64,000 nt of DNA from Chitinophagaceae bacterium (GCA_039919885.1 JBDSEV010000022.1:43284-107283); one strand, 5' to 3'; positions 5,001 through 42,075 are shown, numbered from the stretch's first letter. The notes: a model not told the origin generated them from the letters alone. Numbers and translations: made by a program.

Positions 5001-5087
5001 GGTTTGGAAAATACTGCACGGGGCATGTATTATTTTGAACTGGAAGCTGCTGGAACAGTTGCAAGGGAAAAAATAATGAAACAATAA
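2076..5087 (+). CDS. Large secreted T9SS cargo protein. Two SdrD-B/Cna-B-like domains flank a roughly 600-aa unassigned region, followed by an Fn3-like YYRVK domain and a T9SS C-terminal sorting domain.
   Basis: 1003-aa ORF with a signal peptide (MKLKFYLIRTILLLTGTVVFQAIDAQ). The SdrD-B-like motifs are VFRDMNANGIQDNINPTEPGEYGVTVKAY and VWNDINGNGRQDADEPGIANVEVVL...TDANGNYYFD. The C-terminal tail (LQWNTFDE...VERSTDNRQF...YYRVKIVDTNGRVKYS...VTPNPF...) is shared with five other proteins in this window. Confidence 0.85.
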   Translation: MKLKFYLIRTILLLTGTVVFQAIDAQVAGTVFRDMNANGIQDNINPTEPGEYGVTVKAYNAANSLIATATTDAAGFYSFSAAQAAAGTALRLEFSASAGDYPSRRAAADRSNIQFVIAGPTANSIDYALATKKLLSDNSNPFVATTAATNGNALATGAGNAGDNDNLYVFPYDLSGNGGSTRRAKNQYTGSVFGLAWQRESRTLLMAAYLKRHAGFGPGGIGAIYQTQINHNGEPTAPTLLLDVNAMGINVGTDPRVNPLPDASADPNTDQGVFAEVGKRGIGSIELADNGRDLYIVNMYENKLHRINIGNPLKTSFSSADVTGTWAIPDPGIAGTAWHPMALKTHAGKMYVGGICTREVTTAYNVADTANLTGVVYEINIKSASPVFTEVMRFPITHRRGFTNADFRYENRNNYWSAWQNNGDISIGGPLRSDLLGSLLGGNATGIYYSQPLFSSIEFDVDGSMVIALRDRFGDQGGYANYFETGNVPGETYRVLSSGEMMRAGKTNTGWMLEKNATVSSGGITTATPGLADNNPLGLGSFLAFLGSPWGGSYGPGGKYYYYNQNFTNTGVPAAFAGSTNTGHYLKTNGGLALLPGFNEIMTTAIDPMSQSFTNGLLKNYNLGADAGNMAGRMALIASASGDPSNMGKAAALGDLELLLDAQSVEIGNRVWNDINGNGRQDADEPGIANVEVVLRSPGDDGVYNNGDDQTWTVTTDANGNYYFDGSFVNDDRRPASWIGVSNTNSGILPGFEYKVEINPQSSITGLLLTAAHASADEIDNDGTYDITRAQYIINPGGSAAPNSSFENNYNIDFGFSNNSLLSVNKIELTATLVNSDVKLQWNTFDELNVRTYTVERSTDNRQFSSIGFAVSKGNGSFTYQSVDNIEKLGAVKMYYRVKIVDTNGRVKYSATVSVNSKLATGVMVTPNPFISFIQVQARADKNGTGSLRIVNAGGQVIYNRNVQLVKGQNSFTIDGLENTARGMYYFELEAAGTVAREKIMKQ

Positions 5088-14977: not shown

Positions 14978-15013
14978 GTTGCGCTTTTTATAAGGCAGCC
15001 GGGCCGTATTCAG

Positions 15014-28463: not shown

Positions 28464-28511
28464 GTAAAACAACGATCAGTTTGTCGGCAAAAAAAGTGAT
28501 TTGATCGAATA
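28464..28511 (+). promoter_or_regulatory. Conserved 48-nt upstream block (candidate activator or operator site) of paralog 1
   Basis: The block gtaaaacaacgatcagtttgtcggcaaaaaaagtgatttgatcgaata aligns with 31972-32019 upstream of paralog 2. In both genes it lies exactly 12 nt upstream of the -33 element. It contains an internal direct repeat, AAAAnAACGAT / AAAAAGTGATT, about 25 nt apart. Confidence 0.45.
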
Positions 28512-28523
28512 TGCTGCAAGAAG

Positions 28524-28555
28524 ATTGTAAGAAGAGGCAGCTTGCTTTAGTTTTA
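28524..28555 (+). promoter_or_regulatory. Putative sigma-A promoter of paralog 1 (ATTG-N20-TAGTTTTA)
   Basis: A near match to the -7 consensus TAnnTTTG lies at 28548-28555, with TTG 20 nt upstream. Paralogs 2 and 4 show the same geometry. The implied leader is about 110 nt. Confidence 0.45.
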
Positions 28556-28671: not shown

Positions 28672-31600
28672 ATGAAAACATTTTTACCCGCTGCAATTCG
28701 TTGCAGTTTATTTTTGATGATTGTTTTCTTATTAGGAAAACCATCATTAGCGCAAACCGATGCATGTACCAGCCCTCCTTTACTTGTTTCATCCTACGCT
28801 GGCTGTAGTTCTACCGTCGGCACACTGCCCGGCGGAGCATCTTATACTGCTGGGTCAATCTCTTCCATAGGTTGCGGTACAGCATCACGAAATGACGTGT
28901 GGTATACTTTTGTTGCTAACTCAGCTACTCCAACAGTTACATTAACTACGGCTATGGCCAACCCGAGATTGCAACTTTTTTCCGGCAGTTGTGGCTCCCT
29001 CGTAAATGTGATGTGTGGCACTACTGGCGGATCACCTGTTACGATGGCTGCTGCGGGATTAACTGTTGGCACGACCTACTATATCAGAATTTACACGACT
29101 TTAAATGCAAGCGGAAATTTTAATATTTGTATTACAGACCCAACACCACCGGCAAATGATAATTGCGCCGGCGCTGTTAATTTAAATTCCAATAATTCCT
29201 GCAGTAATACCCCAGGAACACTTCTATATTCAACCCCCAGTTCCACAACCGCTTCCTGTGGAACAGCTTCCTCGGGAGATGTTTGGTATAAGTATAACGC
29301 AACTACCGCTTATCCAACCATAACATTGGATATTAACAATACGAATACCACTATTAAAGCAGCGACCGCTGTTTTGGAAATATACTCCGGCGCTTCTTGT
29401 GCCGGGTTAACATCAATTGGTTGCTGGAAAGGAGGCCCCGGGCTTGGTAATTTTTCGGCGAGTCCGGTACTCACCGTGGGCGCCACTTATTACATCCGGG
29501 TATATACAAATACTAATACAGGCAGCTATATTGGATCGGGTAACTGGGCTTTTAATATATGTATCGTCAATCCTTCCGCGTCCAACCCCACGGTGTTCTA
29601 CGGAAAAAGTTATGTAAACATTACGAAAGGTAGTGGCGGCGGTACGGTTGAACCCGGTGACGAACTGGAAATAAGGGGAACCTTTGCTGTTTCTGCAAAC
29701 GCAGCTTACTTCTGCGCTTTTTCAGATAATGTGCCTGCCAATACTACTTATGTACCAAACACCCTGCGGGTACTTACCAATGAAGGAAAAATATACCAGC
29801 AATTTACGGACGCGGCTGCGGATGACGCAGGCACCATTGCACTCGGCGCTGTAACTATTAATTTAGGAAGCGGGGCGACCGCGGCTAGCGGCGGTGCGGT
29901 AAGATTTACCAACCGGCCATCTAACTTCGGCACCACCTGTATTATGGTGGCCTCCTACCGGGTAATTGTAAACGCAGTTTCGCTGGGTACAATCGTTAAT
30001 ATGGGCGGCGGCACCATTGCTTATAGGAACCAGCCGTTGACGCCAGTCAATACCATTACCTTCCCGGCATACAATGCGGTTGTTTATAAAAATTTTGGCA
30101 TTTGTGCAAACACCATTGGCTCCAATGGGGTACTTTCAGAATTTAGCGGAACCTTTGGTTCTGGCAATATGAAAGACCGCGCTGCATCCAGCAAAATTCC
30201 CGCAAATTATACGTACGCGCAGTTTTCTAACGGCAACCCAGGTGACAATTTCTATGGCCTGTCAAATAACTCCAGCTCTGGCGGTGTCAATTATTCAATT
30301 AATCCCAATGAACCCGTTGCAGTGAAACATGTATTTAATGTGTGGGACATCATAGGAGATCATACTGGAGCCACCAATCCATTAGCAGGTAATCCTCCGG
30401 CGGACACAACGGGCGGCAAAACAGGTGGGTACATGGTTGTAATCAATGCAGCCTTTAGAACCGATACTGCGTTTCTCGATACAGTAAAAAACCTGTGTCC
30501 GAACACGTACTATGAATATTCTGCATGGTTCCGTAATATATGCCGTACCTGCGGTGCAGATTCTATCGGCGTGAGCTCTTCCAGCCTGGGATATATTCCA
30601 ACCGGTCCCGGAGATTCAAGTGGAGTGCACCCAAACCTGACATTTAATATTAACGGAAAAGACTATTATACTACGGGCGACATTTTATACAATGGCCAAT
30701 GGATAAAAAAAGGGTTTACGTATCTCACCGGCCCCGCTGAAACCCAAATGATAATTAATATACGCAACAATGCACCCGGTGGTGGGGGCAACGACTGGGC
30801 GGTAGACGACATTGGCGTGGCAACTTGCACGCCCAACCTGGTGATGAACCCAGCGACACCAACCGTAAATGTCTGCTATGGCGATGGCACCTCACTGTCT
30901 GCTGATGTTACCAGCTACTTTAACAATTACACACAATATATCTGGGAAAAAAGTACAGATAACGGCGTGAACTGGTTATCCACCGGCTACAGCGGTACCG
31001 GATCTCCGTTAACCAACGGAACAGAATTTGTGTACACCGCAGTAGGCCCTTCTTTTATCGGCGATTCATCTACGCATAATAACATTTTCCGTTTACGTGT
31101 GGCAAGCACCTCCATTAATCTGGCAGACCCCAGCTGTTCATTTTCAGGCATTAGAACTGTAAAGGTGTATGTAAGCAATTGTATGTGGTTGTTAAAAGCC
31201 AACTTTGTAAACTTCTCCGGCAGCCTGCGCAGTAATCTCGCCGGCCTTCAATGGAAGATGGTAAATGAAAACGGAAAAGAAAGCTATGAAATTGAAAAAA
31301 GTACCGATGGTACCCACTTTACTATCGCTGGCAAACTAAGGTCCACTTCGCCCGATGGAAGCGGCAACTATACATTTGACGATCCTGCGGCGCTGAACGC
31401 CATAACCTATTACCGTATTAAGCTGCTGGAAGAATCAGGATTTAAATATAGTAAAACGGTTATGCTGGCACCTGGTAAAATACCATTTGACGTAAAAGGC
31501 CTGGTGAATCCATTCTCGTCGCATATACAATTTGATGTAATAGTACCCGGTACCGGAGCAATAAAATCTACATTGTTTGATAATTATGGTAAAGTAGTTA

Positions 31601-31743
31601 AAACCCATACCGAACAGGCAGAAAAAGGGGTACATGCAATAAAAATTGCCAACATCAGTAATTTAACCAGTGGCATGTACACATTAAAAGTTCAATGGCA
31701 AAACGAAACGCTTACGAAAAGAATTATTAAAATAACTGAATAG
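28672..31743 (+). CDS. Giant T9SS cargo protein, paralog 1. Order of parts: signal peptide, 2 PPC-like Cys-rich repeats, DUF11-like Ig domain, unassigned GDHTG/GGGGNDWA core, Ig-like domain, Fn3-like YYRIK domain, T9SS CTD.
   Basis: Start taken at the ATG MKTFLPAAIRCSLFLMIVFLLGKPSLAQ; the ORF track starts 48 nt earlier at a GTG. It is collinear with the next three genes, and the motifs are listed in the findings. The C-terminus LVNPFSSHIQFDV...GMYTLKVQWQNETLTKRIIK is a type-A T9SS sorting domain. Confidence 0.88.
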   Translation: MKTFLPAAIRCSLFLMIVFLLGKPSLAQTDACTSPPLLVSSYAGCSSTVGTLPGGASYTAGSISSIGCGTASRNDVWYTFVANSATPTVTLTTAMANPRLQLFSGSCGSLVNVMCGTTGGSPVTMAAAGLTVGTTYYIRIYTTLNASGNFNICITDPTPPANDNCAGAVNLNSNNSCSNTPGTLLYSTPSSTTASCGTASSGDVWYKYNATTAYPTITLDINNTNTTIKAATAVLEIYSGASCAGLTSIGCWKGGPGLGNFSASPVLTVGATYYIRVYTNTNTGSYIGSGNWAFNICIVNPSASNPTVFYGKSYVNITKGSGGGTVEPGDELEIRGTFAVSANAAYFCAFSDNVPANTTYVPNTLRVLTNEGKIYQQFTDAAADDAGTIALGAVTINLGSGATAASGGAVRFTNRPSNFGTTCIMVASYRVIVNAVSLGTIVNMGGGTIAYRNQPLTPVNTITFPAYNAVVYKNFGICANTIGSNGVLSEFSGTFGSGNMKDRAASSKIPANYTYAQFSNGNPGDNFYGLSNNSSSGGVNYSINPNEPVAVKHVFNVWDIIGDHTGATNPLAGNPPADTTGGKTGGYMVVINAAFRTDTAFLDTVKNLCPNTYYEYSAWFRNICRTCGADSIGVSSSSLGYIPTGPGDSSGVHPNLTFNINGKDYYTTGDILYNGQWIKKGFTYLTGPAETQMIINIRNNAPGGGGNDWAVDDIGVATCTPNLVMNPATPTVNVCYGDGTSLSADVTSYFNNYTQYIWEKSTDNGVNWLSTGYSGTGSPLTNGTEFVYTAVGPSFIGDSSTHNNIFRLRVASTSINLADPSCSFSGIRTVKVYVSNCMWLLKANFVNFSGSLRSNLAGLQWKMVNENGKESYEIEKSTDGTHFTIAGKLRSTSPDGSGNYTFDDPAALNAITYYRIKLLEESGFKYSKTVMLAPGKIPFDVKGLVNPFSSHIQFDVIVPGTGAIKSTLFDNYGKVVKTHTEQAEKGVHAIKIANISNLTSGMYTLKVQWQNETLTKRIIKITE
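28753..29568 (+). repeat. Two tandem in-frame PPC-like Cys-rich domain repeats inside paralog 1
   Basis: Each unit has the form [N]D.C..A......C....GTL....(C)GT....DVWY.[FY]......P[TS][IV]TL......[RV][LI][QE][LI][FY]SG[SA]C..L....C......L..G.TYYIR[IV]YT....G.[FW].F.ICI. The boundary between units is at 29139/29140. Confidence 0.8.
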
Positions 31744-31971
31744 TGCAGGCTAGCCTTCTAACTGGAAAACCGGAATTAATAAAAGTTCGACGTAAAATAA
31801 AAATTAAAAAGTATCACCTGCGTTCATCAACCATGCGGCTGTGAGATGCAGGTGTTGGGAAGGCAACACAATAGAGCCGTGGCTTATTCCGGTATGCGCT
31901 GTACCAAGCTCTATTTATCCGGAGTTATCGACGCCAACAACCATGTTGTATACTTTTCATTTTTTAAAATC

Positions 31972-32019
31972 GTAAAAGAACGATTCAGTTATCGGGTAAA
32001 AAGACGATTTGAACGAATA
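31972..32019 (+). promoter_or_regulatory. Conserved 48-nt upstream block of paralog 2 (partner of 28464-28511)
   Basis: The block gtaaaagaacgattcagttatcgggtaaaaagacgatttgaacgaata matches the paralog 1 block at roughly three-quarters of positions by eye. It has the same 12-nt spacing to the -33 element. Confidence 0.45.
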
Positions 32020-32031
32020 GAGAGCTTTTCG

Positions 32032-32063
32032 TTTGCAGACAGAAATTGCCTGTACTAGTTTTG
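32032..32063 (+). promoter_or_regulatory. Putative sigma-A promoter of paralog 2 (TTTG-N20-TAGTTTTG)
   Basis: Exact matches to the Bacteroidetes -33 TTTG (32032-32035) and the -7 TAnnTTTG (32056-32063), separated by 20 nt. The ATG is 114 nt downstream. Confidence 0.5.
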
Positions 32064-32176
32064 CGGAATGTACATCTAGATGCTATAGCCTATACTAAGA
32101 AATTTTATACATAGTAATTGCTAAGTGTTTGTACGTCTGTAGCCATTTTTTTATTAGTCGGGTAAGATCTCAATCT

Positions 32177-35100
32177 ATGAAAACGTTTATATCTGCTTCC
32201 TTTCGTCGTGTAAAGACGCTTTTTGTTTTAATGGTTATTGTACTTGCGGGGTATCAATCTTTTGCCCAGGCGCCTGCCAATGACCTTTGCATAAATGCAT
32301 CGCCGCTAACGGCTGCGGTTACCTGTAACGCTGTGGCCGGCACATTAAGTGATGCTACCGTTTCGATACCCACCCTAACTGGTTGTGGCACCACAGGTGC
32401 AGATGTTTGGTATACTTTTGTTGCGCAATCCGCGTATCCCAATATTACATTGAGCAATCCGGGCGCTAGTCTAACTGGTACCAATGCGCGTATTCAACTT
32501 TTTTCTGGAAGCTGCGCGAGCCTTACCCAGCTGGGTTGTATCAGCGGAACTTTTTTAAGTACCGCCAGCGTTTATCCCGCAGGCCTTATCACCGGCAATA
32601 CTTACTATATAAGAATATATTCGGCCACTGTTGCACCCACTGGTGGTGCTGCATGGGATTTTTCTATTTGTGTTACGGATCCGCCCGCAAACGATCTTTG
32701 CAGCAATGCTTTGTTATTAGCATCTGCTACTTCCTGCACGCCAACCGCAGGCACTTTAAACAATGCGGCAGTATCAATACCCGCAATTGCCGGGTGTGGC
32801 ACAACGGGCGGCGATGTGTGGTACACGTTTGTTGCACAGTCTGTTTATCCCTCTATAACATTAGGCAGCCTTGGATCAAGTCTTGCCGGTACCAATGCAC
32901 GTATACAATTACTTTCAGGTGCGTGCGGAAGCTTAACAGCACTGGGTTGTGTCTCAAACAGCGTCTTCAATACTGCCGCGGCGTATCCAACCGGGCTAAC
33001 GCCAGGTAATACCTATTATATAAGAATTTACTCAAACACACTGGCGCCAACAAGTGCTGCCACTGCGTGGGATTTCTCTATTTGCATAACAGATCCACCA
33101 ATAAATGATCTCTGTACCAATGCTACAGCACTTGTATCAGCTAATACCTGTTCTGCCGTACCGGGTACACTGAATTATGCAGCCGTTTCTGTACCAACTA
33201 TTGCTACTACCTGCGGAACTGCTGGCGCGGATGCCTGGTATACTTTTGTTGCACAGTCAGTATATCCATCCATTACTTTAAGCAACCTTGGATCAAGCCT
33301 GACGGGAACCAATGCCCGCATACAATTGTTTTCGGGCACCTGTGGCACATTGAGTTCACTGGCCTGCGTGGCCACCAGTACGTTTAATACCGCCGCTGCT
33401 TACCCCGCTGGCTTAACACCGGGCGATACCTATTATATCAGGATATATTCAAATGCTGCGGCGCCGGCAAGTGCCACCACTGCATGGGATTTTTCCATCT
33501 GTGTTACGGACCCTCCCACAAATGACCTTTGTACGGACGCCACTGTACTGGTATCAAACAATATTTGCAGCAATACTTCCGGTACCCTTAACAGTGCAGC
33601 AGTATCCGTCCCAGCTATTACCACCACCTGCGGAACTGCCGGCGGAGATGTATGGTATTCTTTTGTGGCGCAATCTGCCTACCCAACCATTACGCTCAGC
33701 AGTATGGGAATAAATATCAATGGCAACGCCAGGATACAAATATTTTCTGGCAGCTGCGCCAGTATGACTTCACTCGCCTGCGTATCAGCGGCCAGCTTTA
33801 ATACTTCAATCAGTTACCCCGCAGGGTTAACACCGGGCAATACTTATTTCGTAAGAATTTATTCCAATACACTTGCGCCGGCAAGCGTCACCGGTGGCTG
33901 GGATTTTTCCATTTGTATAACGGATCCACCGGTAAATGATAATTGTGCGAATGCAATCGCATTAACATCCGCCAGTGTGTGCAGCAATATTGCCGGCACC
34001 ATGGGTAGTGCTACTTATTTTGCTTCGGGTGCTGTGGCTTGTTCGGGCACCGACAGGTATGACGTTTGGTACACATTTATCGCGCAAAGAACAAACCCTA
34101 CCATTACTATCAGCAGTGCAGGTGCAGGGTTTAACACGCCAAGAATACAGGTGCTGTCTGGTACCTGCGGCAGTTTTATTTCTACCGGTTGCAATGGCAG
34201 TACTTATACACCCACCGGGTTAACCATTGGTGCAACTTACTATGTGAGGGTTTATTCTACCAACAACCCCATACCCAACATAAATGCAGATTTTAATATT
34301 TGTATAACGGACCCCGCATTGCCTGCGAATGATGATTGTGCAGGCGCCACGGTGATAACTTCAGCACCAGCCTGCTCCAGCACTGCCGGAACCTTGTTAA
34401 ATGCTACGGCCACCACCGGTGTGCCTGGTAATTGCGGCGACGCCAATTCACCAGATGTATGGTATAGCTTTGTGGCCAACACGCCTTTTCCTTCCATTAC
34501 GCTCGGAAGTTTGGGCGCACAGTTTGCTGCTGCCGGGCCAAGGGTTCAAATTTTGTCTGGCACTTGCGGAAGCTTCACCTCCCTGGCATGTACAAACACT
34601 ACTTCTTTCAACACATTTCTGCCAAGCGGACGAACAGGTCTTACTATCGGTAACACGTATTATATCCGTGTTTACACCAATACAGCTATAATGAGCGGTG
34701 CCAACTGGAATTTTAATATTTGTGTGACCGAACCCGCTGCACCCGCTATAGATTATGGGAGGAGTTATGTAAATATAACCAAGGGATCAAACGGTGGTAC
34801 CATTGAACCAGGAGATGAGCTGGAGATGCGGGCAACCATGTCCGTGAGATCCAACTCGGCTTATGGCGTATCCTTTACGGGTGCTATTCCGGCCAATACA
34901 ACTTATGTACCCGGCACGCTCCGGATACTCACCAACGAAGGAAAAATTTATAAACAATGGACGGACGCCGCAGACGGCGATCCCGCTACCATATCAGGTT
35001 CAGCAATTACTGTGAACCTTGGATCTTCGGCCGATCAATTACTCGGTGGTGTTATGAAGAGTAGTGACAGACCTGTGGCAGGTAGTACCTGTCTTAATAT

Positions 35101-36907
35101 TGTCTCCTTCCGTGTAATTGTTAATGCCATTGCTTTTGGCACCCCGTTAAGCGTTGGTGGCGGAAATATTTCCTACTATAATCCATCCAGTGCTACCGGT
35201 CCCATTAATATTACTTTCCCGGATGTTACGGCCATCGTTTATAAAAACTATGGCATCTGCACCAATACCATCGGCAGTAACGGTATATTGTCTGAATATG
35301 GTGGCACATTTGGATCAGGTACACAGAAGGACCGCGATTCATCACTGAACATACCAACCAATTATCAATACAAAGTGTTTACCTCTGGTGCCCCGGGCGA
35401 TTACTTCTATGGAATGTCTAATAACACCAGCACAGGTACAGGGCCAGCCAACTATTCCATCGACCCTAACGATCCCGTAGCAGCGCATCGTGTGTTTGCG
35501 GTGTGGGATATCATTGGCGACCATACAGGTGCAGCGAACCCCCTGGCAGGAAATTTACCGACAGATGTAAACAATGGTTTCAGTGGTGGTTACATGGCGG
35601 TTATCAATGCATCTTACCGGACCGATACTGCTTTCCTTGATACGGTAAGAAATTTGTGTCCCAATACTTCTTACGAGTATTCCGCATGGTTCAGGAATAT
35701 TTGCCGGAGGTGTGGCGTAGACTCAGTGGGCACACAGGCTTTAAATCCTGGTTACCTGCCAACCGGCCCGGGCGATTCATCGGGTGTACATCCCAACCTT
35801 ACTTTTAATATTAACGGCTTTGATTATTATACAACCGGAGACATGGGTTATACGGGCCAATGGGTAAAAAAAGGATTTACCTATCGCACCGGCCCATCAG
35901 AAACCCAGATGATCATTAATATACGCAATAACGCACCCGGTGGTGGCGGTAACGACTGGGCAATTGATGACATCGGCGTGGCATCGTGCACACCTATACT
36001 GGAAGTTAACCCGGCAGATCCCTTACTAAAAGTATGCTACGCGGATGGCGCATCTATTTCAGCCAAAGTGAAAAGCTATTTCGATAACTATACTTACTAT
36101 ATATGGGAAAAAAGTACGGATGGTGGGGTTAGTTTTACCTCCACAGCCTACACCAGCGCCGGCACCATAGCACCGGTATTCAACGGATCTGAATATGAAT
36201 ACACGGCCACCGGCCCGTCGTTCATCGGTGATTCTACCACCCACAACAATGTTTTCAGGCTGCGGGTAGCCAGCTCAGCAGGCAACCTGGCTGATCCCTC
36301 CTGCTCTTTCATTGCAGCCAGAACAGTAAAGGTGTATGTTAATAATTGTATGTGGTTGTTGAAAACAGATTTCGTGAATACGACGGGATCAATCCATAAT
36401 AACCTTTCCGAAATTCAATGGACCACGGTAAACGGAAATGGCAAAGAATATTATGAGGTAGAAAAAAGCACAGATGGCAGCTCCTTTACCAAAATTGGCA
36501 AAGTAAATTCCCATGTGCTTACCGGCAACAGCGTGTATCATTTTACTGACCCAACTGCTATTGCCGGCATGCAGTATTACCGCATTAAATTAGTAGAAGA
36601 AAATGGTTTTAAGTATAGCAAAACAATTTTGCTGAATACGGGCAAGGCCAATTTTTCCGTACAAAACCTGGTGAACCCATTTGCAAATACCATCTCCTGC
36701 AACGTTGTATTACCGGCAGACGGAGATGTACGCACCACCATTTTTGATATGTATGGAAGGGCGGTAAAAACATACCGGCAGTCTACGATAGCTGGTGTTA
36801 GCCCGCTTCAGATCCGTGACCTTGGGTCGCTGAGCGCAGGTACCTACTTTTTAAAAATAGAATGGCAAAATGAAAGCATTATCAAAAAGGTGATTAAATC
36901 TAAGTAA
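32177..36907 (+). CDS. Giant T9SS cargo protein, paralog 2. It has six PPC-like repeats, then the same DUF11-like, core, Ig-like, Fn3-like and CTD architecture.
   Basis: Start taken at the ATG MKTFISASFRRVKTLFVLMVIVLAGYQSFAQ, giving 1576 aa. Downstream of the repeats it aligns with paralog 1 along the whole length, for example VWDIIGDHTGAANPLAGN, LCPNTSYEYSAWFRNICRRCGVDS, IRNNAPGGGGNDWAIDDIGVASC and YYRIKLVEENGFKYSKTILL. Confidence 0.9.
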   Translation: MKTFISASFRRVKTLFVLMVIVLAGYQSFAQAPANDLCINASPLTAAVTCNAVAGTLSDATVSIPTLTGCGTTGADVWYTFVAQSAYPNITLSNPGASLTGTNARIQLFSGSCASLTQLGCISGTFLSTASVYPAGLITGNTYYIRIYSATVAPTGGAAWDFSICVTDPPANDLCSNALLLASATSCTPTAGTLNNAAVSIPAIAGCGTTGGDVWYTFVAQSVYPSITLGSLGSSLAGTNARIQLLSGACGSLTALGCVSNSVFNTAAAYPTGLTPGNTYYIRIYSNTLAPTSAATAWDFSICITDPPINDLCTNATALVSANTCSAVPGTLNYAAVSVPTIATTCGTAGADAWYTFVAQSVYPSITLSNLGSSLTGTNARIQLFSGTCGTLSSLACVATSTFNTAAAYPAGLTPGDTYYIRIYSNAAAPASATTAWDFSICVTDPPTNDLCTDATVLVSNNICSNTSGTLNSAAVSVPAITTTCGTAGGDVWYSFVAQSAYPTITLSSMGININGNARIQIFSGSCASMTSLACVSAASFNTSISYPAGLTPGNTYFVRIYSNTLAPASVTGGWDFSICITDPPVNDNCANAIALTSASVCSNIAGTMGSATYFASGAVACSGTDRYDVWYTFIAQRTNPTITISSAGAGFNTPRIQVLSGTCGSFISTGCNGSTYTPTGLTIGATYYVRVYSTNNPIPNINADFNICITDPALPANDDCAGATVITSAPACSSTAGTLLNATATTGVPGNCGDANSPDVWYSFVANTPFPSITLGSLGAQFAAAGPRVQILSGTCGSFTSLACTNTTSFNTFLPSGRTGLTIGNTYYIRVYTNTAIMSGANWNFNICVTEPAAPAIDYGRSYVNITKGSNGGTIEPGDELEMRATMSVRSNSAYGVSFTGAIPANTTYVPGTLRILTNEGKIYKQWTDAADGDPATISGSAITVNLGSSADQLLGGVMKSSDRPVAGSTCLNIVSFRVIVNAIAFGTPLSVGGGNISYYNPSSATGPINITFPDVTAIVYKNYGICTNTIGSNGILSEYGGTFGSGTQKDRDSSLNIPTNYQYKVFTSGAPGDYFYGMSNNTSTGTGPANYSIDPNDPVAAHRVFAVWDIIGDHTGAANPLAGNLPTDVNNGFSGGYMAVINASYRTDTAFLDTVRNLCPNTSYEYSAWFRNICRRCGVDSVGTQALNPGYLPTGPGDSSGVHPNLTFNINGFDYYTTGDMGYTGQWVKKGFTYRTGPSETQMIINIRNNAPGGGGNDWAIDDIGVASCTPILEVNPADPLLKVCYADGASISAKVKSYFDNYTYYIWEKSTDGGVSFTSTAYTSAGTIAPVFNGSEYEYTATGPSFIGDSTTHNNVFRLRVASSAGNLADPSCSFIAARTVKVYVNNCMWLLKTDFVNTTGSIHNNLSEIQWTTVNGNGKEYYEVEKSTDGSSFTKIGKVNSHVLTGNSVYHFTDPTAIAGMQYYRIKLVEENGFKYSKTILLNTGKANFSVQNLVNPFANTISCNVVLPADGDVRTTIFDMYGRAVKTYRQSTIAGVSPLQIRDLGSLSAGTYFLKIEWQNESIIKKVIKSK
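32270..34732 (+). repeat. Six tandem in-frame copies of the PPC-like Cys-rich domain (411, 414, 417, 414, 387 and 420 bp)
   Basis: Unit boundaries read directly from the sequence: 32270, 32681, 33095, 33512, 33926, 34313, with the array ending at 34732. Each unit starts P[PA].ND.C and ends [WF][DN]F[SN]IC[VI]T[DE]. Units 1-4 are the most similar to each other and also show DNA-level similarity. Confidence 0.9.
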
Positions 36908-37078
36908 GTCATTCAGTTACTGCGTTCTAAATGCTTTTAATAGAACCGTATACTAAAAACCACTTATCACCGTTTTTACTAGTCAACCAGTAATGCTGCG
37001 AGACAGGGTATTTATTGTTAATCATTGTTTTGATCCGCCGCAATCTTAAAACGAATTGCGGCCGGCAAAATCCATTCT

Positions 37079-39412
37079 ATGAAAAATATTGTAACCCTTA
37101 CCGGGAAACTATACAGCTGCGCAGCAGTGTTTATGCTCCTTTTTTTAAGCCAGCAATATGGCCACGCACAAGCGTCCGCCAAAATAAAATTCAGCAACAG
37201 TTATGTAAATATTACCCGTAATACCCTCGGTGGTACGGTTGAATCCGGTGATATCCTGGAAATCCGCACTACATTATATGTGAACAGCACGTACAACACA
37301 ACGGGAATGATCTACTACCTCCGCTATGTCGATAACCTGCCGTCCAATACCGCCATATCAGCCGCAAGCACCCTCAACCTCATTACCAATGAAGGTGTTG
37401 CCCTTAAAACATATACGCAAGCACCCGATGCGGATGCCGGAACGTACCTTGCTACGCCATCTGTTGGGGAATTCCAGGTTAAAGTTAATATGGGTGGTTT
37501 CCCTTTTAGCGCGGATCCATCTGCGCCGGCAGACAACTCACCAACCGATGTAACGGGTTCGGGAAATCTGAGGGGCAACGTAAACAAGCCAAAATTTGGT
37601 GGCGGCACCCTGGTGTCCACGGCGTTCCGTGTGCAGGTAACCGGTAGTACCGGCGATATCATCACACTTGGCAGCGGGCATTTACTATTTAAGAAAACAA
37701 ACGTGCCAGGCGACCCCGATACTTCCATCAACACCATTCCTTATCAAATTTTAATTTCCGCCAACGAAAGCCTCTGCTCCAATACGGTAGGAACCAATTT
37801 TGCCGATGAGTTTGCCGGGAGTTTTGGCAGTGGCAATTCCCTGAACAGATCAACAGGACCCAGTTTTGCTTTGCCTGGTTATACTTACATTCCAAATGTG
37901 AGCCTGTACCCAAGTGTGGGCATAAACGATGGTTATTATGCAGTAGTAAATAATTCCAGTCCAAAATCGGCCACGGATCCAAATGCGCGACGCCAACCTA
38001 ATTGCGCACTACCAGCAGGTCCTATTGCACCCAATGACTCGTGTGCAGGAAGAATGTTTGGCGGTTTTTGGTTCATCAGTGGCGACCATACAGGAACCAT
38101 GGATGCTATTGGTAACCCACCACCAGGGCCAGGCGCCACCGGTGGCTATATGCTGGCTGTAAATGCTGACATTGCTACCACGGAAGCCTATAAGCAAACC
38201 ATCTCTGGCCTGTGCCCCGATACCTACTATGAGTTTTCAGCGTGGGTTAAAAATATCTGCCCGCTCTGTGGTCTTGATTCATCGGGTAGCCAGACCTACA
38301 AACCCGGTGTATTACCCAATCTTACTTTTGTGGTTGACGGTGTTGACCGCTATTCATCCGGTGAAATTGACACGCTTGGCTGGTTGAAAAAAGGCTTCCT
38401 TTTTAGGACCAATAGTGGCCAGACATCCATCGTAATTTCTATACGCGACAATGCACCCGGTGGTGGTGGAAACGACTGGGTACTGGATGATATTACACTG
38501 GCTACCTGCAGCCCAAACCTGGCCATGTTGCCATCGCCCATAGCACCAGTTTGTTATGGTAACACGGTTGATATCTCCTGCGATGTAACCAGCTATTTTT
38601 CAAATTATACGCATTGGGAATATGAAAAAAGTACGGATTCAGGCGTTACCTGGGTCACAACAGGCGTTAGTGGGGTGGGTGTACCGGTCCTTACGGCCGG
38701 ACAATACCAGTACAATGCAGCATACCCAACATTTGTTGGAGACAGCAGCGTACACAAGAATGTATACCGCATCAGGATTGCCTCTTCTGCGGCAAACCTG
38801 GCAGATCCTAACTGTTCTTTCCTTGCTACCACTACCATTGTAATAAAGGTTAACAATTGCCAATGGGTATTGAAGACAGATATTACAGCTATTTCCGGAC
38901 AACTCAAAGACAATGCCGCTACCGTTCGCTGGTCAATAGCAGACGAAGCGCCGGGTGTTGAATATGCGGTGGAAAAAAGCACCGATAAAATTAATTACAA
39001 ACCTGTTGAAAAAGTGGCCGCAAAAATGCAACAGGCGGCAAACTATGTGTATAACGATCCCGAAATATTAACGGCTCCTGCGTATTATCGTATTAAAATA
39101 ATTGACAAGGATAAATTTAAATTTAGCAAAACAATCCTGCTGAGTCCTTCGGGATTGTCATTGGGAATAAAATCGATCACCAACCCGTTTGTACAAACCC
39201 TCGCTTTTGATGTGCTGGCACCTTCAGCGGGCATGGCCGGCGTACTGGTGATTGATAACTACGGTAAAACAATATACCAGCGGAAGGAGCTGGTCAGCAC
39301 AGGAATTAATCCTGTAAAAATTTATCTGCCCGCACTCAGCAATGGCATTTATACTTTGCGTATAGAATTCAATAATACCGTTATTAATAAAAGGGTCATT
39401 AAAGCAAACTAA
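37079..39412 (+). CDS. T9SS cargo protein, paralog 3. It has no PPC-like repeats; otherwise DUF11-like domain, core, Ig-like domain, Fn3-like domain and CTD.
   Basis: 777-aa ORF with a signal peptide (…LLFLSQQYGHAQA). It is the most divergent member but keeps SYVNITRNTLGGTVESGDILEIR, FWFISGDHTGT, GGYMLAVNA, LCPDTYYEFSAWVKNICPLCGLDS, IRDNAPGGGGNDWVLDDITLATC and YYRIKIIDKDKFKFSKTILL. Confidence 0.88.
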   Translation: MKNIVTLTGKLYSCAAVFMLLFLSQQYGHAQASAKIKFSNSYVNITRNTLGGTVESGDILEIRTTLYVNSTYNTTGMIYYLRYVDNLPSNTAISAASTLNLITNEGVALKTYTQAPDADAGTYLATPSVGEFQVKVNMGGFPFSADPSAPADNSPTDVTGSGNLRGNVNKPKFGGGTLVSTAFRVQVTGSTGDIITLGSGHLLFKKTNVPGDPDTSINTIPYQILISANESLCSNTVGTNFADEFAGSFGSGNSLNRSTGPSFALPGYTYIPNVSLYPSVGINDGYYAVVNNSSPKSATDPNARRQPNCALPAGPIAPNDSCAGRMFGGFWFISGDHTGTMDAIGNPPPGPGATGGYMLAVNADIATTEAYKQTISGLCPDTYYEFSAWVKNICPLCGLDSSGSQTYKPGVLPNLTFVVDGVDRYSSGEIDTLGWLKKGFLFRTNSGQTSIVISIRDNAPGGGGNDWVLDDITLATCSPNLAMLPSPIAPVCYGNTVDISCDVTSYFSNYTHWEYEKSTDSGVTWVTTGVSGVGVPVLTAGQYQYNAAYPTFVGDSSVHKNVYRIRIASSAANLADPNCSFLATTTIVIKVNNCQWVLKTDITAISGQLKDNAATVRWSIADEAPGVEYAVEKSTDKINYKPVEKVAAKMQQAANYVYNDPEILTAPAYYRIKIIDKDKFKFSKTILLSPSGLSLGIKSITNPFVQTLAFDVLAPSAGMAGVLVIDNYGKTIYQRKELVSTGINPVKIYLPALSNGIYTLRIEFNNTVINKRVIKAN

Positions 39413-39551
39413 CAGTTGGCGGGCAAATACCTAACGGGCGTGCAAAAAACGCTTTATTCTTGCCTGAAAAACCTATTATCTTATGATTACCAGCCTACTA
39501 GAAAACAAAAAAATACTGTCACCGGCATTGGTTTCACGTAGTACTAGTACG

Positions 39552-39583
39552 ATTGCGATTAAGGCCCGCAACGACTACTTTTG
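39552..39583 (+). promoter_or_regulatory. Putative sigma-A promoter of paralog 4 (ATTG-N20-TACTTTTG)
   Basis: TACTTTTG at 39576-39583 matches TAnnTTTG, with TTG 20 nt upstream. The ATG is 50 nt downstream. Confidence 0.45.
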
Positions 39584-39632
39584 AACAGACGGATCAACAG
39601 GTAATTGTTGCCTGAAAACCAAATCTGTATCT

Positions 39633-41903
39633 ATGAAAATACCTTTACCTAAACCTCTCCTAAGCAGCCTCCTTATTGTACCGGCCGCAGTGTGCATATC
39701 ATTCGCTGCCACTGCACAAACCGTAGACTATGGAAAAAGCTATATCAATACAACCAAGGGGACTGCCGGCGGCACCATGGAACCAGGCGACACCCTACAG
39801 ATAAAATCAACTTTTGTAGTAAAGTCCGGCACGCTGGACAGTTGTGGTTTTTTTGATAACATACCGGCAGGAACGGTTTACATACCGGGAAGTCTGGCAG
39901 TATTAACCAATGAAGGAAAAGTATATAAGGCATTTACAGATGCCGCAGGAGACGATGCCGGCTGGATAGCGGGTACAGCAATCAGAATTAATCTTGGCTT
40001 TAATAGCCTGGGCGGTAAACAGGCAAGCGCCTTGCGGAGAGGCCAGATAAAAAATACGGATAAGCCTTCTTTTTACAACGGCACCTGTATTATGGTTGCT
40101 TCCTATAAAATAAAAATAAACACCGCTTTGGGCGGTCAGATCAACGTAGGCGGCGGGTATGTAACCTATAAAAGTGGTTCCAGCGCAATTACAACCAGTT
40201 CCTTCCCGGTAGACAATGTTGCTATTTTTACCAACTATGGTCTTTGTTCTAATTCTGTGGGCGCAAATGCGCTGGGTACGGAATTTAACGGCACTTTCGG
40301 GGGAGGAAAAAATAAAAACAGGGGTACTTCTGCAAATGTACCGCCCAGTTATACCTATTCCCCTTTTACTGCAAACAATCCAAATGATTATTACTACGGC
40401 ATTTCAAACAATACCAGTACGGCGGGCGCAGGCTACAGCATTCTTAACTCATGGCCAAAACCGGATCCTTCTGCTACTTCGCACCGGGTGTTTACCGTAT
40501 GGGATATCATAGGCGATCATACCGGCGCCGTAAATCCTATTCTGGGCAACCCTCCTGCAGATACCGTAAACAAAAACAATGGCGGTTATATGCTGGTCAT
40601 CAATGCCAGCTACCGTATAGACTCTGCATTTAACCAGACCATCACTGGTCTTTGCCCCAATACTTATTATGAATTTTCCCTCTGGATAAGAAACATCTGT
40701 TCAAAATGCGGTTGTGATTCCAATGGCAGGGGTGCTACCGGCGGCGTAGGATACATACCCACTGCACCCGGTGACTCATCAGGCGTAAAACCAAACCTTA
40801 CGCTGGCCATCAATGGCGTCGATTATTACACCACAGGAGACATTGCATACAATGGTCAATGGATAAAAAAAGGCTTTACTTATTTAACGGGACCGATGCA
40901 GACTTCGCTAACCGCAATGGTGCGCAACAACGCGCCCGGTGGTGGCGGCAACGACTGGGCCATTGACGACATCGCGCTGGCCACCTGTATGCCTAACCTC
41001 AACCTGGATCCATCACCAAATCTTACTGTCTGCGTGGGCAACCAGGTAGATATGTCCAGCGTGATCAGTTGCTATTTTTCTAACTATATCTATTGGCGCT
41101 GGGAAAAAAGTGTTGACAATGGTGTCACCTGGACCAATACAGGTATTTCAGGAACCGGCACACCCGTTTATAATGCAGGACAATGGCAGTATACTGCTAC
41201 GTATCCATCGTTCCTGGCAGACATTTCTTTAAACAATGCAAGGTTCAGGATTACAGTGGCCTCCACGCCACTCAATTTAGATGATGCAGGCTGTTCTTTT
41301 AGCGCCGCTACGGTGATACAGGTGCTCACCAGTACTTGTATGGCGCTGCCCGGTAAACAGCTGGCTTCCTTTAAAGGTAAAGCTGTCAATGATTTTGCCA
41401 CCCTCGACTGGACCGCTATAAATGAAACTTCCGGGATGTTTTTTGAAATTGAAAAAAGCACGGACGCAATGCATTTTCAAAAAGTGGGGACCGTAAATGC
41501 CGTTGCCGGAAACGGAGACACGCATCGCTATACATTAACGGATATGGAAGTATTGACCGGCGTGACCTACTATCGTTTGAAAATGGTTACAGCAACAGGT
41601 TTTGTCTACAGCCAGGTAGTTAATTTGTACGGAGGTAGTATCAGTTTCGAACTAAGATCGCTCCTTAATCCATTCGATAATTACCTTTCGTTTGATGCTA
41701 TAACATCAGCCGATAAAAAAGTAACCGTTTTATTATTTGACAGTTTTGGCCGGGTGGTAAAACAGAAAAAAGAAATCTTGCATGCGGGTTTTAATAAAAT
41801 CATCATGACGGATTGCAGCAGCCTGAGCGATGGTACCTATTTTTTACAGGTACAGGCAGCAGAACAGGTAATTAATAAAAGAGTAATCAAAATAAAAAGA
41901 TAA
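39633..41903 (+). CDS. T9SS cargo protein, paralog 4, with no PPC-like repeats
   Basis: 756-aa ORF with a signal peptide (…CISFAATAQ). It keeps YGKSYINTTKGTAGGTMEPGDTLQIK, VWDIIGDHTGAVNPILGNPPADT, GGYMLVINA, LCPNTYYEFSLWIRNICSKCGCDS, VRNNAPGGGGNDWAIDDIALATC, YYRLKMVTATGFVYSQ and a T9SS CTD. Confidence 0.88.
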   Translation: MKIPLPKPLLSSLLIVPAAVCISFAATAQTVDYGKSYINTTKGTAGGTMEPGDTLQIKSTFVVKSGTLDSCGFFDNIPAGTVYIPGSLAVLTNEGKVYKAFTDAAGDDAGWIAGTAIRINLGFNSLGGKQASALRRGQIKNTDKPSFYNGTCIMVASYKIKINTALGGQINVGGGYVTYKSGSSAITTSSFPVDNVAIFTNYGLCSNSVGANALGTEFNGTFGGGKNKNRGTSANVPPSYTYSPFTANNPNDYYYGISNNTSTAGAGYSILNSWPKPDPSATSHRVFTVWDIIGDHTGAVNPILGNPPADTVNKNNGGYMLVINASYRIDSAFNQTITGLCPNTYYEFSLWIRNICSKCGCDSNGRGATGGVGYIPTAPGDSSGVKPNLTLAINGVDYYTTGDIAYNGQWIKKGFTYLTGPMQTSLTAMVRNNAPGGGGNDWAIDDIALATCMPNLNLDPSPNLTVCVGNQVDMSSVISCYFSNYIYWRWEKSVDNGVTWTNTGISGTGTPVYNAGQWQYTATYPSFLADISLNNARFRITVASTPLNLDDAGCSFSAATVIQVLTSTCMALPGKQLASFKGKAVNDFATLDWTAINETSGMFFEIEKSTDAMHFQKVGTVNAVAGNGDTHRYTLTDMEVLTGVTYYRLKMVTATGFVYSQVVNLYGGSISFELRSLLNPFDNYLSFDAITSADKKVTVLLFDSFGRVVKQKKEILHAGFNKIIMTDCSSLSDGTYFLQVQAAEQVINKRVIKIKR

Positions 41904-42047: not shown

Positions 42048-42075
42048 AAAACCCCGCCTGTAGAGGTGGGGTTTT
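42048..42075 (+). terminator. Rho-independent terminator closing the paralog array
   Basis: The sequence is aaaa-ccccgcc-tgtaga-ggtgggg-tttt: a 7-bp stem with one G-U pair and a 6-nt loop, where the A and T flanks can extend the stem. Confidence 0.65.

What the first reader, a model, noticed from the sequence alone, without database searches (positions are those of the whole stretch)
28672..41903. Tandem array of four giant paralogous T9SS cargo genes built around an unassigned core
Four consecutive same-strand genes (1023, 1576, 777 and 756 aa) are collinear paralogs. Each has a signal peptide and a DUF11-like Ig domain (Y[GS].SY[VI]N[IT]T[KR]...GGT[VM]E[PS]GD.L[EQ]I[RK]...[NL][VIL]P[AS][NG]T.Y[VI]P.[TS]L..LTNEG). 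These are followed by a core of about 250 aa that I cannot place in any named family, then a Cys-bracketed Ig-like domain (VC.G......V.SYF.NY..[YW].[WY]EKS.D.GV.W..TG.SG.G.P), an Fn3-like YYR[IL]K domain and a type-A T9SS sorting domain. The array occupies 13 kb and ends at one strong terminator (42048-42075). Three members carry their own TTG-N20-TAnnTTTG promoter. DNA identity between members is only moderate, so this is an old, maintained family rather than a recent duplication. That fits a functionally diversified set of secreted surface proteins (adhesin, lectin or enzyme battery) whose core activity is unknown.
Basis: partly seen in the sequence, partly recalled or inferred. Interest (0 to 1): 0.8.

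Follow-up and report, generated by a model that had tools for sequence, protein, structure and literature searches.

The report
Four paralogous T9SS lectin-like surface proteins
Four neighbouring genes in a Chitinophagaceae genome encode related secreted surface proteins whose previously unplaced, highly conserved core is predicted to fold like a carbohydrate-binding module with an unusual extra cap, so they are most likely sugar- or polymer-binding adhesins of an unnamed but widespread family, not a new kind of system.

Summary
Four same-strand ORFs (28672-31743, 32177-36907, 37079-39412, 39633-41903) share a collinear module of about 720 aa at 39-63% identity. The module runs N-terminal beta-sandwich, 260-aa core, Ig-like domain, Fn3-like domain, type A T9SS sorting domain. 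No Pfam, NCBIfam or PDB sequence profile matches the core. A confident AlphaFold model of the core (pLDDT 88) matches CBM4/6/16/22 modules, the EclA lectin domain and CBM-fold Stig cyclases over its C-terminal ~140 residues. The first ~120 residues form a conserved, mostly non-regular cap with an invariant Asp-His. The core is the most conserved part of the protein (76% identity among homologs, against about 40% for the stalk and CTD). It never co-occurs with catalytic domains. In distant T9SS cargo (CHU_C/SprB-repeat proteins) it is repeated in tandem. Gene 4 is the ancestral copy: single-copy orthologs sit between fumC and lspA in most related Chitinophagaceae. Genes 1-3 are older lineage-specific duplicates with orthologs in sister species. 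Best reading: surface-displayed lectin-like adhesins, a new variant of a known kind with unknown ligand. Interest is moderate.

The parts
28672..31743 (+). Gene 1 (1023 aa): signal peptide, 2 GBD_T9SS_assoc repeats, N-terminal beta-sandwich, core, Ig-like, Fn3-like, type A CTD
32177..36907 (+). Gene 2 (1576 aa): signal peptide, 6 GBD_T9SS_assoc repeats (period 411-417 nt), then the same shared module
37079..39412 (+). Gene 3 (777 aa): the most divergent paralog (39-41% identity). It has a Cys-containing insertion in the core cap and lacks the PTGPGDSS loop.
39633..41903 (+). Gene 4 (756 aa): the ancestral copy, orthologous to the single-copy syntenic gene of other Chitinophagaceae
28744..29571 (+). 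Gene 1 N-terminal GBD_T9SS_assoc (PF23759) repeats, 2 copies
   Evidence: (37.7 bits against a cutoff of 27)
32267..34741 (+). Gene 2 N-terminal GBD_T9SS_assoc (PF23759) repeats, 6 copies
   Evidence: (115 bits, 6 stretches)
30067..30840 (+). Core domain of gene 1 (CBM-like jelly roll plus N-terminal cap)
35222..36001 (+). Core domain of gene 2
37739..38521 (+). Core domain of gene 3
40209..41000 (+). Core domain of gene 4 (aa 193-456). Modelled at pLDDT 87.9; the C-terminal half matches CBM4/6/16/22, EclA and HpiC1 folds.
39720..40247 (+). Gene 4 N-terminal beta-sandwich domain (aa 30-205), specific to this family. The 'DUF11-like' label is unconfirmed.
41001..41348 (+). Gene 4 Ig-like domain with conserved Cys (C467, C554, C569). 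It recurs next to the core in distant relatives.
41349..41612 (+). Gene 4 Fn3-like 'YYRLK' domain. Together with the CTD it forms a generic cassette also found in the GSDH and SdrD_B cargo proteins of this window.
41667..41891 (+). Gene 4 type A T9SS C-terminal sorting domain. The equivalents are at 31507-31731, 36674-36898 and 39182-39403 in genes 1-3.
32056..32063 (+). TAGTTTTG, a Bacteroidota -7-type box upstream of gene 2. The homologous box of gene 1 is TAGTTTTA at 28548-28555.
39576..39583 (+). TACTTTTG, a -7-type box 50 nt upstream of the gene 4 ATG
42048..42075 (+). Intrinsic-terminator-like hairpin closing the array. A convergent one on the - strand lies at 42158-42136.

Best explanation
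The four genes encode T9SS-exported, cell-surface lectin-like adhesins.

Shown here. Each protein has a Sec-type signal peptide ending in AQ and a type A T9SS C-terminal sorting domain. Between them lies a fixed module: a family-specific beta-sandwich, a 260-aa core, an Ig-like domain and an Fn3-like domain. The core is one elaborated beta-jelly-roll of the CBM / galactose-binding-domain-like fold. It carries a ~120-residue conserved cap and a conserved loop-plus-last-strand motif, NAPGGGGNDW..DDI. It is by far the most constrained part of the protein.

Inferred. After Sec export the CTD directs passage through the T9SS translocon. A PorU-type sortase removes the CTD, and the protein is either tethered to anionic LPS or released, as established for P. 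gingivalis cargo (PMC5445135). The Fn3-like and Ig-like domains would act as a stalk. The N-terminal sandwich plus the core would form the distal head, which binds a glycan or other polymer, probably with Ca2+ bound by the ND...DD acidic residues as in CBM4/6/22 modules.

Origin of the array. Gene 4 is the conserved ancestral copy. Genes 1-3 are old duplicates. Their fixed differences and loop insertions and deletions concentrate in the core, which suggests changed ligand specificity. In genes 1 and 2, 2 and 6 additional GBD_T9SS_assoc modules add reach or valency.
For: Paralogy and architecture.

T9SS type A CTD.

Core fold. The core-only AF2 model has pLDDT 87.9 and pTM 0.87. Foldseek against PDB gives 83 hits at E<=1e-3. 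The top 50 are carbohydrate-binding jelly rolls (EclA C-terminal lectin domain at E 3e-6 and TMt 0.59, CBM22, CBM4-2, CBM16, CBM6, CBM61, Fbs1 sugar-binding domain, an alginate CBM), CBM-fold Stig cyclases and a Cry1Ca toxin. BFVD hits are CBM6, CenC-like CBMs and phage tail-fibre domains.

Sequence bridge. Distant HMMER relatives of the core give Pfam CBM_4_9_1 at 28.1 bits (cutoff 27), HpiC1-like at 26.2 (cutoff 27), and weak CBM_6, CBM60 and CBM_4_9 hits on the same segments. Three of 40 close homologs give weak CBM_4_9 hits.

No catalytic partner. In 16 representatives scanned, the partners are only GBD_T9SS_assoc, Ig, PKD, cadherin-like, SprB repeats and CTDs.

Tandem use. In other T9SS cargo the core is repeated 2 to 5 or more times, often with the same Ig-like domain. 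This is typical of binding modules.

Constraint. Mean identity among homologs is 76% for the core, 63% for the N-domain, 55% for the Ig-like domain, 38% for the Fn3-like domain and 40% for the CTD. Of 28 group-specific fixed differences between paralog types, 21 lie in the core.

Maintenance. Each paralog type has an intact ortholog in sister species.
Against: Only about 130-150 of the 264 core residues superpose on CBMs, with TM-scores normalised to target length of 0.4-0.6. This is fold-level similarity only.

The N-terminal cap, with its invariant D103-H104-T105, has no structural counterpart.

The core is unusually conserved for an adhesin, and gene 4 is a single-copy syntenic core gene. 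Both features would also fit an enzyme or a housekeeping envelope role.

The locus is not in a polysaccharide utilisation locus. Its conserved neighbours are housekeeping genes: fumC, lspA, and a large gene read by eye as a murF-alr fusion.

There are no expression or secretion data.
Confidence: 0.55

Rival explanations
1. The core is a secreted enzyme built on a CBM-like scaffold, as the Ca2+-dependent Stig cyclases are. The invariant Asp-His of the cap and the acidic ND...DD cluster would form a metal or active site acting on an extracellular substrate. The four paralogs would then be an isozyme set.
For: Stig cyclases (HpiC1, FamC1 and others) are among the best Foldseek hits and align over ~240 columns. 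A distant relative scores 26.2 bits on Pfam HpiC1-like against a cutoff of 27. Core identity is very high (76%), and invariant polar residues D60, D103, H104, N132, N162, D249, D253 and D254 are kept across 39 diverse sequences. The gene is single-copy and syntenic across the family.
Against: The Stig-cyclase superpositions have rmsd of 9-12 Å. The tighter superpositions are with lectins and CBMs. Most of the more distant relatives examined lack the DHT motif but keep the NAPGG.GND..DD motif. The core is repeated in tandem in other proteins, which is unusual for catalytic domains. No window protein reaches any enzyme family threshold.
Confidence: 0.15
2. The proteins are surface-coat or motility adhesins, analogous to SprB. 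Their head domains would contact surfaces or partner cells in general, not one specific glycan. The ancestral copy would serve a housekeeping envelope function.
For: Distant relatives of the core occur in CHU_C (type B CTD) proteins with SprB repeats, Ig_7 and PKD domains. The whole-protein Foldseek search returns MAM-Ig-Fn3 receptor ectodomains, an S-layer protein and PorU. The position next to lspA and a cell-wall-type gene is conserved in 59-66 of 80 loci.
Against: The window proteins carry type A CTDs, not the type B CTD of SprB-class gliding adhesins. They are short (about 750 aa) compared with SprB-like giants. Synteny with housekeeping genes is not evidence of a functional link. The whole-protein structural matches have TM-scores of only 0.1-0.2.
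Confidence: 0.15
3. The head binds a non-carbohydrate target, such as a protein, a lipid or another organism's surface. This would resemble Cry-toxin domain III or phage receptor-binding domains, which share the fold. The paralogs would be diversified for different prey or hosts.
For: Cry1Ca and phage tail-fibre or receptor-binding proteins are among the fold matches. Paralog-specific fixed differences are concentrated in the core.
Against: The majority of fold matches, and the closest ones, are sugar-binding modules. No toxin or effector domain is attached. The high conservation of the core across a whole bacterial family argues against arms-race targets.
Confidence: 0.1

Closest known systems
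CBM4 / CBM9 (CenC-like), CBM6, CBM16 and CBM22 carbohydrate-binding modules (galactose-binding-domain-like jelly rolls)
   Same: The C-terminal ~140 residues of the core superpose on these modules: Foldseek E 4e-5 to 2e-4, TMt 0.43-0.51. The core ends in an acidic ...GND...DD last-strand motif. My recollection, not tested here, is that such modules bind structural Ca2+ at this position. Distant sequence relatives reach near-threshold CBM_4_9_1, CBM_6 and CBM_4_9 Pfam scores.
   Different: No window protein matches any CBM profile. The domain is about 260 aa rather than 130-170. It has a ~120-residue conserved cap with an invariant DHT motif and an extra CxxC-containing loop. It is not appended to a glycoside hydrolase. 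Carbohydrate binding is untested.
EclA C-terminal lectin domain (PDB 6yf6)
   Same: It is the best single structural match: E 3.2e-6, TMt 0.59, rmsd 2.6 Å over 127 columns. It is a small sugar-binding beta-sandwich.
   Different: Sequence identity is 15%. It covers under half of the core. The architecture and organism are different. No shared binding-site residues were established.
Stig cyclases (HpiC1, FamC1, FilC1): CBM-fold, Ca2+-dependent terpene cyclases
   Same: They give fold matches over ~240 columns (E about 1e-5). A distant relative of the core scores 26.2 bits on Pfam HpiC1-like.
   Different: The rmsd is high (9-12 Å). The window proteins do not match PF22825. These are cyanobacterial cytosolic biosynthetic enzymes, whereas the window proteins are secreted T9SS cargo. 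No indole-alkaloid gene context is present.
CHU_C / SprB-repeat T9SS type B cargo proteins of Bacteroidota
   Same: They contain recognisable copies of the same core domain (HMMER E 1e-27 to 1e-60 with the core profile). The copies are often in tandem and are followed by the same 'W.W..S.DGG..W' Ig-like domain.
   Different: They carry type B (CHU_C) rather than type A CTDs. The examples inspected by eye lack the family-specific N-terminal sandwich, the CxxC loop and, in most, the DHT motif. Their architectures are different and usually larger.
Receptor tyrosine phosphatase mu ectodomain (MAM-Ig-Fn3, PDB 2v5y)
   Same: It is the top whole-protein Foldseek hit (E 1.9e-11). It has the same order of a jelly-roll head, an Ig domain and an Fn3 domain on a membrane-proximal stalk.
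   Different: It is a eukaryotic cell-adhesion receptor. TM-scores are 0.13-0.16. This is an architectural analogy only, with no homology claimed.

Membership tests
T9SS type A cargo | C-terminal sorting domain matching TIGR04183 / PF18962 above the curated cutoff | tested here: met
   TIGR04183 scores 32.4, 33.2 and 30.8 bits (cutoff 23) for genes 1, 2 and 4. Gene 3 scores 22.6 bits, marginal, but its tail aligns with the others, including the NPF...D..G...G.Y.L...K..IK columns.
T9SS type A cargo | N-terminal Sec signal peptide | tested here: met
   Read directly from the translations: a basic n-region, a hydrophobic stretch of 12-18 residues, and an ...AQ cleavage-type site in all four. AF2 places a helix at residues 7-20 of gene 4. 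No dedicated predictor was available.
T9SS type A cargo | Actual T9SS-dependent secretion, CTD removal and A-LPS attachment | not testable with these tools
   This requires secretome or proteome data from wild type against a T9SS mutant. Mechanism as reviewed in PMC5445135.
GBD_T9SS_assoc (PF23759) | Profile match above the gathering score | tested here: met
   Gene 1 scores 37.7 bits (2 repeats) and gene 2 scores 115.1 bits (6 repeats) against a cutoff of 27. The domain is absent from genes 3 and 4. The core itself is not related to this domain (hhalign probability 0.2%).
DUF11 repeat (TIGR01451 / PF01345) | Profile match above the cutoff in the N-terminal sandwich | tested here: not met
   The only hit is TIGR01451 in gene 2: E 0.0087, 16.1 bits against a cutoff of 24. 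Pfam gives nothing at E<=10 on the isolated domain and nothing in 40 homologs.
CAZy-type carbohydrate-binding module (CBM4/6/9/16/22 class) | Beta-jelly-roll fold of the GBD-like class | tested here: met
   Foldseek matches of the pLDDT-88 core model to CBM22, CBM4-2, CBM16, CBM6 and CBM61, with E 4e-5 to 2e-4 and TMt 0.4-0.5. BFVD CBM6 and CenC-like hits agree.
CAZy-type carbohydrate-binding module (CBM4/6/9/16/22 class) | Sequence membership in a defined CBM family profile | tested here: not met
   The window cores give no CBM Pfam hit at E<=10. Only sub-threshold or near-threshold hits appear in 3 of 40 homologs and in distant relatives. No PDB sequence hit was found.
CAZy-type carbohydrate-binding module (CBM4/6/9/16/22 class) | Demonstrated carbohydrate binding | not testable with these tools
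   This requires glycan arrays, affinity gels or ITC on recombinant protein.
Stig cyclase / HpiC1-like (PF22825) | Profile match and biosynthetic gene context | tested here: not met
   No window protein matches PF22825. Only a distant relative scores 26.2 bits, below the cutoff of 27. The neighbouring genes are housekeeping or glycoside-hydrolase genes.

The most novel reading that the evidence does not exclude
The 260-aa core, a CBM-like jelly roll plus a conserved 120-residue cap with an invariant Asp-His, is not a passive binding module. Instead it would be a new family of secreted, probably Ca2+-dependent enzymes or a specific receptor. Its single-copy ortholog is kept at one core-genome position in most related Chitinophagaceae examined, so it would carry out a conserved and so far unrecognised extracellular function of this family. 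The four-gene array would be a lineage-specific diversification of that function.
Probability: 0.15. Interest if true: 0.6.

Novelty: new variant of a known kind. Interest (0 to 1): 0.35.

Why it matters
Chitinophagaceae are abundant in soil, rhizosphere, freshwater and wastewater, and they export very many T9SS cargo proteins of unknown function.

This family is large. The full-length search found more than 2,297 proteins. The core profile matched 1,392 clusters at 50% identity. It is present in at least 541 places among species-representative genomes. Public sources name it only by its sorting domain.

This work shows that the core is a distinct, highly constrained CBM-like domain, that it is reused in tandem in other T9SS adhesin-like proteins, and that one copy is a syntenic core gene. 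That gives a concrete domain definition suitable for a new Pfam or CBM family. It also gives a tractable target: express the N-domain plus core and screen glycans.

It does not reveal a new kind of system.

Tried and rejected
1. Pfam and NCBIfam on full proteins and on isolated domains at E<=10 found nothing for the core, the N-domain, the Ig-like domain or the Fn3-like domain.

2. PDB sequence searches with one protein and with two profiles (4 and 39 sequences) gave only chance-level hits to neogenin and factor H binding protein.

3. Foldseek with the full-length model gave only generic multi-Ig/Fn3 matches at TM 0.1-0.2. The full-length model was poor (pLDDT <50) across residues 205-320. This was solved by re-modelling the core alone with a more diverse alignment.

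4. I tested whether the core is a diverged copy of the N-terminal GBD_T9SS_assoc repeat. hhalign gave a probability of 0.2%, so this was rejected.

5. I tested for recent duplication or gene conversion. There are no long identical tracts and TRF reports no tandem repeats, so this was rejected.

6. I looked for a polysaccharide-utilisation-locus context. No SusC/SusD pair is adjacent, and the conserved neighbours are housekeeping genes, so there is no support.

7. Literature searches for the family, for PF23759 and for Chitinophagaceae T9SS adhesins found no description of these proteins in the held library.

8. The look-up of encoding contigs for the exact gene 4 product found nothing on record.

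9. An exact TTG-N20-TAnnTTTG promoter for three genes was not reproduced. Only two exact -7 boxes were found.

Full report
OBSERVATION

The window has four consecutive + strand ORFs: 28672-31743 (1023 aa from the ATG), 32177-36907 (1576 aa), 37079-39412 (777 aa) and 39633-41903 (756 aa). All four start in the same context, tctATGAAAA. Each encodes an N-terminus with a basic n-region, a hydrophobic core and an ...AQ cleavage-type site.

The last ~720 aa of each protein align collinearly. Pairwise identities are 63% (g1-g2), 50% (g1-g4), 48% (g2-g4) and 39-41% (g3 against the rest).

DNA identity between copies is 60-81% even in the best-conserved stretches. There are no long identical tracts, and TRF finds nothing. 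The hairpin at 42048-42075 is the strongest terminator-like site in the region.

- The extra length of genes 1 and 2 is an N-terminal array of PF23759 GBD_T9SS_assoc domains. Gene 1 has 2 (37.7 bits) and gene 2 has 6 (115 bits; 411-417-nt period, 61-76% DNA identity between units).
- The 'DUF11-like' label rests on one sub-threshold TIGR01451 hit in gene 2 (E 0.0087). It is not reproduced by Pfam, either in the isolated domain or in 40 homologs.
- Exact TAnnTTTG boxes in intergenic DNA occur only before genes 2 and 4. Gene 1 has TAGTTTTA at the position homologous to gene 2's box, and the two upstream regions are themselves homologous. Gene 3 has none.
- The Fn3-like 'YYR.K' domain plus CTD is a generic tail. 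It is also found on the neighbouring GSDH-type cargo (25699-28305, E 4e-12) and on an SdrD_B-repeat cargo (2076-5087, E 6e-13).

WHAT THE CORE IS

Sequence methods fail.
- Pfam and NCBIfam give no hit at E<=10.
- PDB sequence searches give nothing, whether with a single sequence or with profiles of 4 and 39 sequences.

The first full-length AF2 model (pLDDT 75) was poor across residues 205-320. Its Foldseek matches were generic Ig/Fn3 chains. The top hit was the MAM-Ig-Fn3 ectodomain of RPTPmu, at TM 0.13-0.16.

An exhaustive HMMER search with a profile of the four cores found 1,392 clusters at 50% identity (654 at E<=1e-10). I used diverse full-length core hits to build a 39-sequence alignment (A4, 33-66% identity to gene 4). 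The core alone then modelled at pLDDT 87.9 and pTM 0.87.

Foldseek with that model gave 83 PDB hits at E<=1e-3. The leading ones were:
- the EclA C-terminal lectin domain (E 3e-6, TMt 0.59, rmsd 2.6 Å);
- CBM22, CBM4-2, CBM16, CBM6 and CBM61;
- the Fbs1 sugar-binding domain;
- an alginate-binding CBM;
- the CBM-fold Stig cyclases.

The BFVD library gave CBM6, CenC-like CBMs and phage tail-fibre domains. About 130-150 residues superpose. These are the strands at core residues 128-260.

The first ~120 residues are confidently modelled but mostly non-regular. They carry the invariant D103-H104-T105 motif, which is WDIIGDHTG in the window proteins.

A sequence bridge agrees with the fold assignment. 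Distant HMMER relatives give, on the very segments that match the core:
- Pfam CBM_4_9_1 at 28.1 bits (cutoff 27);
- HpiC1-like at 26.2 bits (cutoff 27);
- weak CBM_6, CBM60 and CBM_4_9 hits.

The core is unrelated to the N-terminal GBD_T9SS_assoc repeats (hhalign probability 0.2%).

HOW THE DOMAIN IS USED ELSEWHERE

Among the 150 best representatives, 55 have the full architecture N-domain - core - Ig - Fn3 - CTD. Others carry 2 to 5 or more core matches in tandem, often interleaved with the same Ig-like domain.

The distant ones are CHU_C (type B CTD) proteins with SprB repeats, Ig_7 and PKD domains. Their cores keep GYM.V.NA, LC.NT.YEFS, PN..F and NAPGG.GND..DD. Most of those inspected lack DHT, and all lack the CxxC loop.

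Long representatives with a full core add only GBD_T9SS_assoc, Big_9, cadherin-like and CTD domains. No catalytic domain was seen in any of them.

EVOLUTION AND CONTEXT

The full-length protein has more than 2,297 relatives. Nearly all listed ones are about 750 aa, and those that carry a source name are called at most 'T9SS type A sorting domain-containing protein'.

A scan of species-representative genomes found at least 541 encoding places. The best 80 are essentially all Chitinophagaceae or Chitinophagales. In 72 of those 80 loci there is one copy. Two or three copies occur mainly in the closest relatives of this window. Four copies is the maximum seen.

The locus is syntenic:
- fumC lies upstream in 61 of 80 loci;
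- a divergently oriented GSDH-type T9SS cargo is adjacent in 52;
- lspA lies downstream in 66;
- the large gene at 44740-47232 lies downstream in 59;
- TerC lies downstream in 55.

A neighbour-joining tree places gene 4 with these single-copy orthologs. Genes 1 and 2 form a clade with their own orthologs in five sister MAG species. Gene 3 forms a third clade, with orthologs in at least three species. The duplications therefore predate several speciations, and every type has been kept intact.

Mean identity of gene 4 to 36 homologs, by domain:

| Domain | Identity |
|---|---|
| Core | 76% (79% in the jelly-roll half) |
| N-domain | 63% |
| Ig-like | 55% |
| Fn3-like | 38% |
| CTD | 40% |

Of 28 positions that are fixed within paralog groups but differ between them, 21 are in the core. 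Gene 3 also has a Cys-containing insertion in the cap and lacks the PTGPGDSS loop.

MECHANISM

The shown facts are the architecture, the CTD, the fold class, the conservation pattern, the absence of catalytic partners and the tandem reuse.

The rest is inferred from established T9SS biology (PMC5445135). The steps would be:
1. Sec export.
2. CTD-directed passage through the T9SS.
3. CTD removal by a PorU-type sortase.
4. Attachment to anionic LPS, or release.

The Fn3-like and Ig-like domains then form a stalk. The N-domain plus core forms a distal head that binds a glycan or polymer, probably with Ca2+ held by the ND...DD acids as in CBM4/6/22 modules. That last point comes from my knowledge of those families and was not tested.

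I put this lectin/adhesin reading at 0.55. The rivals are:
- an enzyme on a CBM scaffold, with the Stig cyclases as precedent, and with the invariant Asp-His and the high conservation in its favour (0.15);
- a general surface-coat or motility adhesin (0.15);
- a binder of non-carbohydrate targets (0.10).

COMPARISON WITH WHAT IS KNOWN, AND NOVELTY

The proteins are members of the T9SS type A cargo class. The CTD and signal peptide criteria are met, but secretion itself is untestable here. Genes 1 and 2 contain bona fide PF23759 domains.

The core works like a CBM or lectin module and has that fold. It fails sequence membership of every defined CBM family and of HpiC1-like, and its cap has no counterpart.

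I found no description of the family in the held literature, though that library is incomplete.

This is a new variant of a known kind: an unnamed, elaborated CBM-like domain family in T9SS surface proteins. A specialist would not be surprised by the general picture. The useful points are the domain definition, the unusually strong constraint on the core, and the finding that one copy is a syntenic core gene of most related Chitinophagaceae. Interest: 0.35.

Noticed in passing
window 25699-28305 (- strand): A GSDH (PQQ-type glucose/sorbosone dehydrogenase-like) beta-propeller protein with its own Fn3-like domain and type A CTD lies divergently upstream of the array. A homologous gene is adjacent to the family member in 52 of 80 related loci. 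A functional link with the lectin-like protein is possible but untested.
   Followed up: partly
window 28465-28512 and 31972-32020: The upstream regions of genes 1 and 2 are homologous. They share a conserved block, GTAAAAnAACGAT...TCGG..AAAAA...GATTTGAnCGAATA, about 40-90 nt upstream of the -7-like box. This could be a duplicated regulator binding site.
   Followed up: partly
window 37037-37062: An 8-bp perfect inverted repeat (GCCGCAAT ... ATTGCGGC, 10-nt loop) lies 17 nt upstream of the gene 3 ATG, in a 171-nt spacer that has no promoter-like box. Gene 3 may be co-transcribed with gene 2 and regulated through this hairpin.
   Followed up: no
window 2076-5087 (+), 25699-28305 (-), and genes 1-4: At least six T9SS type A cargo genes lie in this 64-kb window. 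Three unrelated ones share the same Fn3-like 'YYR.K' + CTD cassette (25-29% identity), which suggests the cassette is a mobile secretion tail.
   Followed up: partly
window 10885-12288 and 13472-17779 (- strand): There are PSCyt1/PSCyt2/PSD1 (DUF1549/DUF1553) and DUF1501 genes, a pair best known from Planctomycetes. Here they carry a weak, sub-threshold CBM_6 match and sit next to GH29 fucosidase-PA14 and GH30 genes.
   Followed up: no
window 42322-43677 (- strand): A 451-aa protein with a lipoprotein-type signal (…AIFSC) has no Pfam match. It lies convergent to the array and is conserved only in the closest relatives (8 of 80 loci).
   Followed up: partly
window 44740-47232 (- strand): An 830-aa ORF reads by eye like a MurF-type ligase fused to an alanine racemase. 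It is conserved downstream in 59 of 80 loci. It was not checked against profiles.
   Followed up: no
L060, L078 (genome contigs) and P0044: Records titled 'Bordetella parapertussis', 'Bacteroides fragilis' and 'Gemmatimonadaceae' MAGs carry Chitinophagaceae-type orthologs at 49-58% identity. These bins are probably mislabelled or contaminated.
   Followed up: no
L039 12939-13706, L057 13050-13826, L079 7926-8711: Independent two-copy arrangements occur in more distant genomes. In L039 and L057 the extra copy lies downstream of the ortholog rather than upstream. L057's two copies are each other's closest relatives in the tree, so at least that duplication arose independently.
   Followed up: partly
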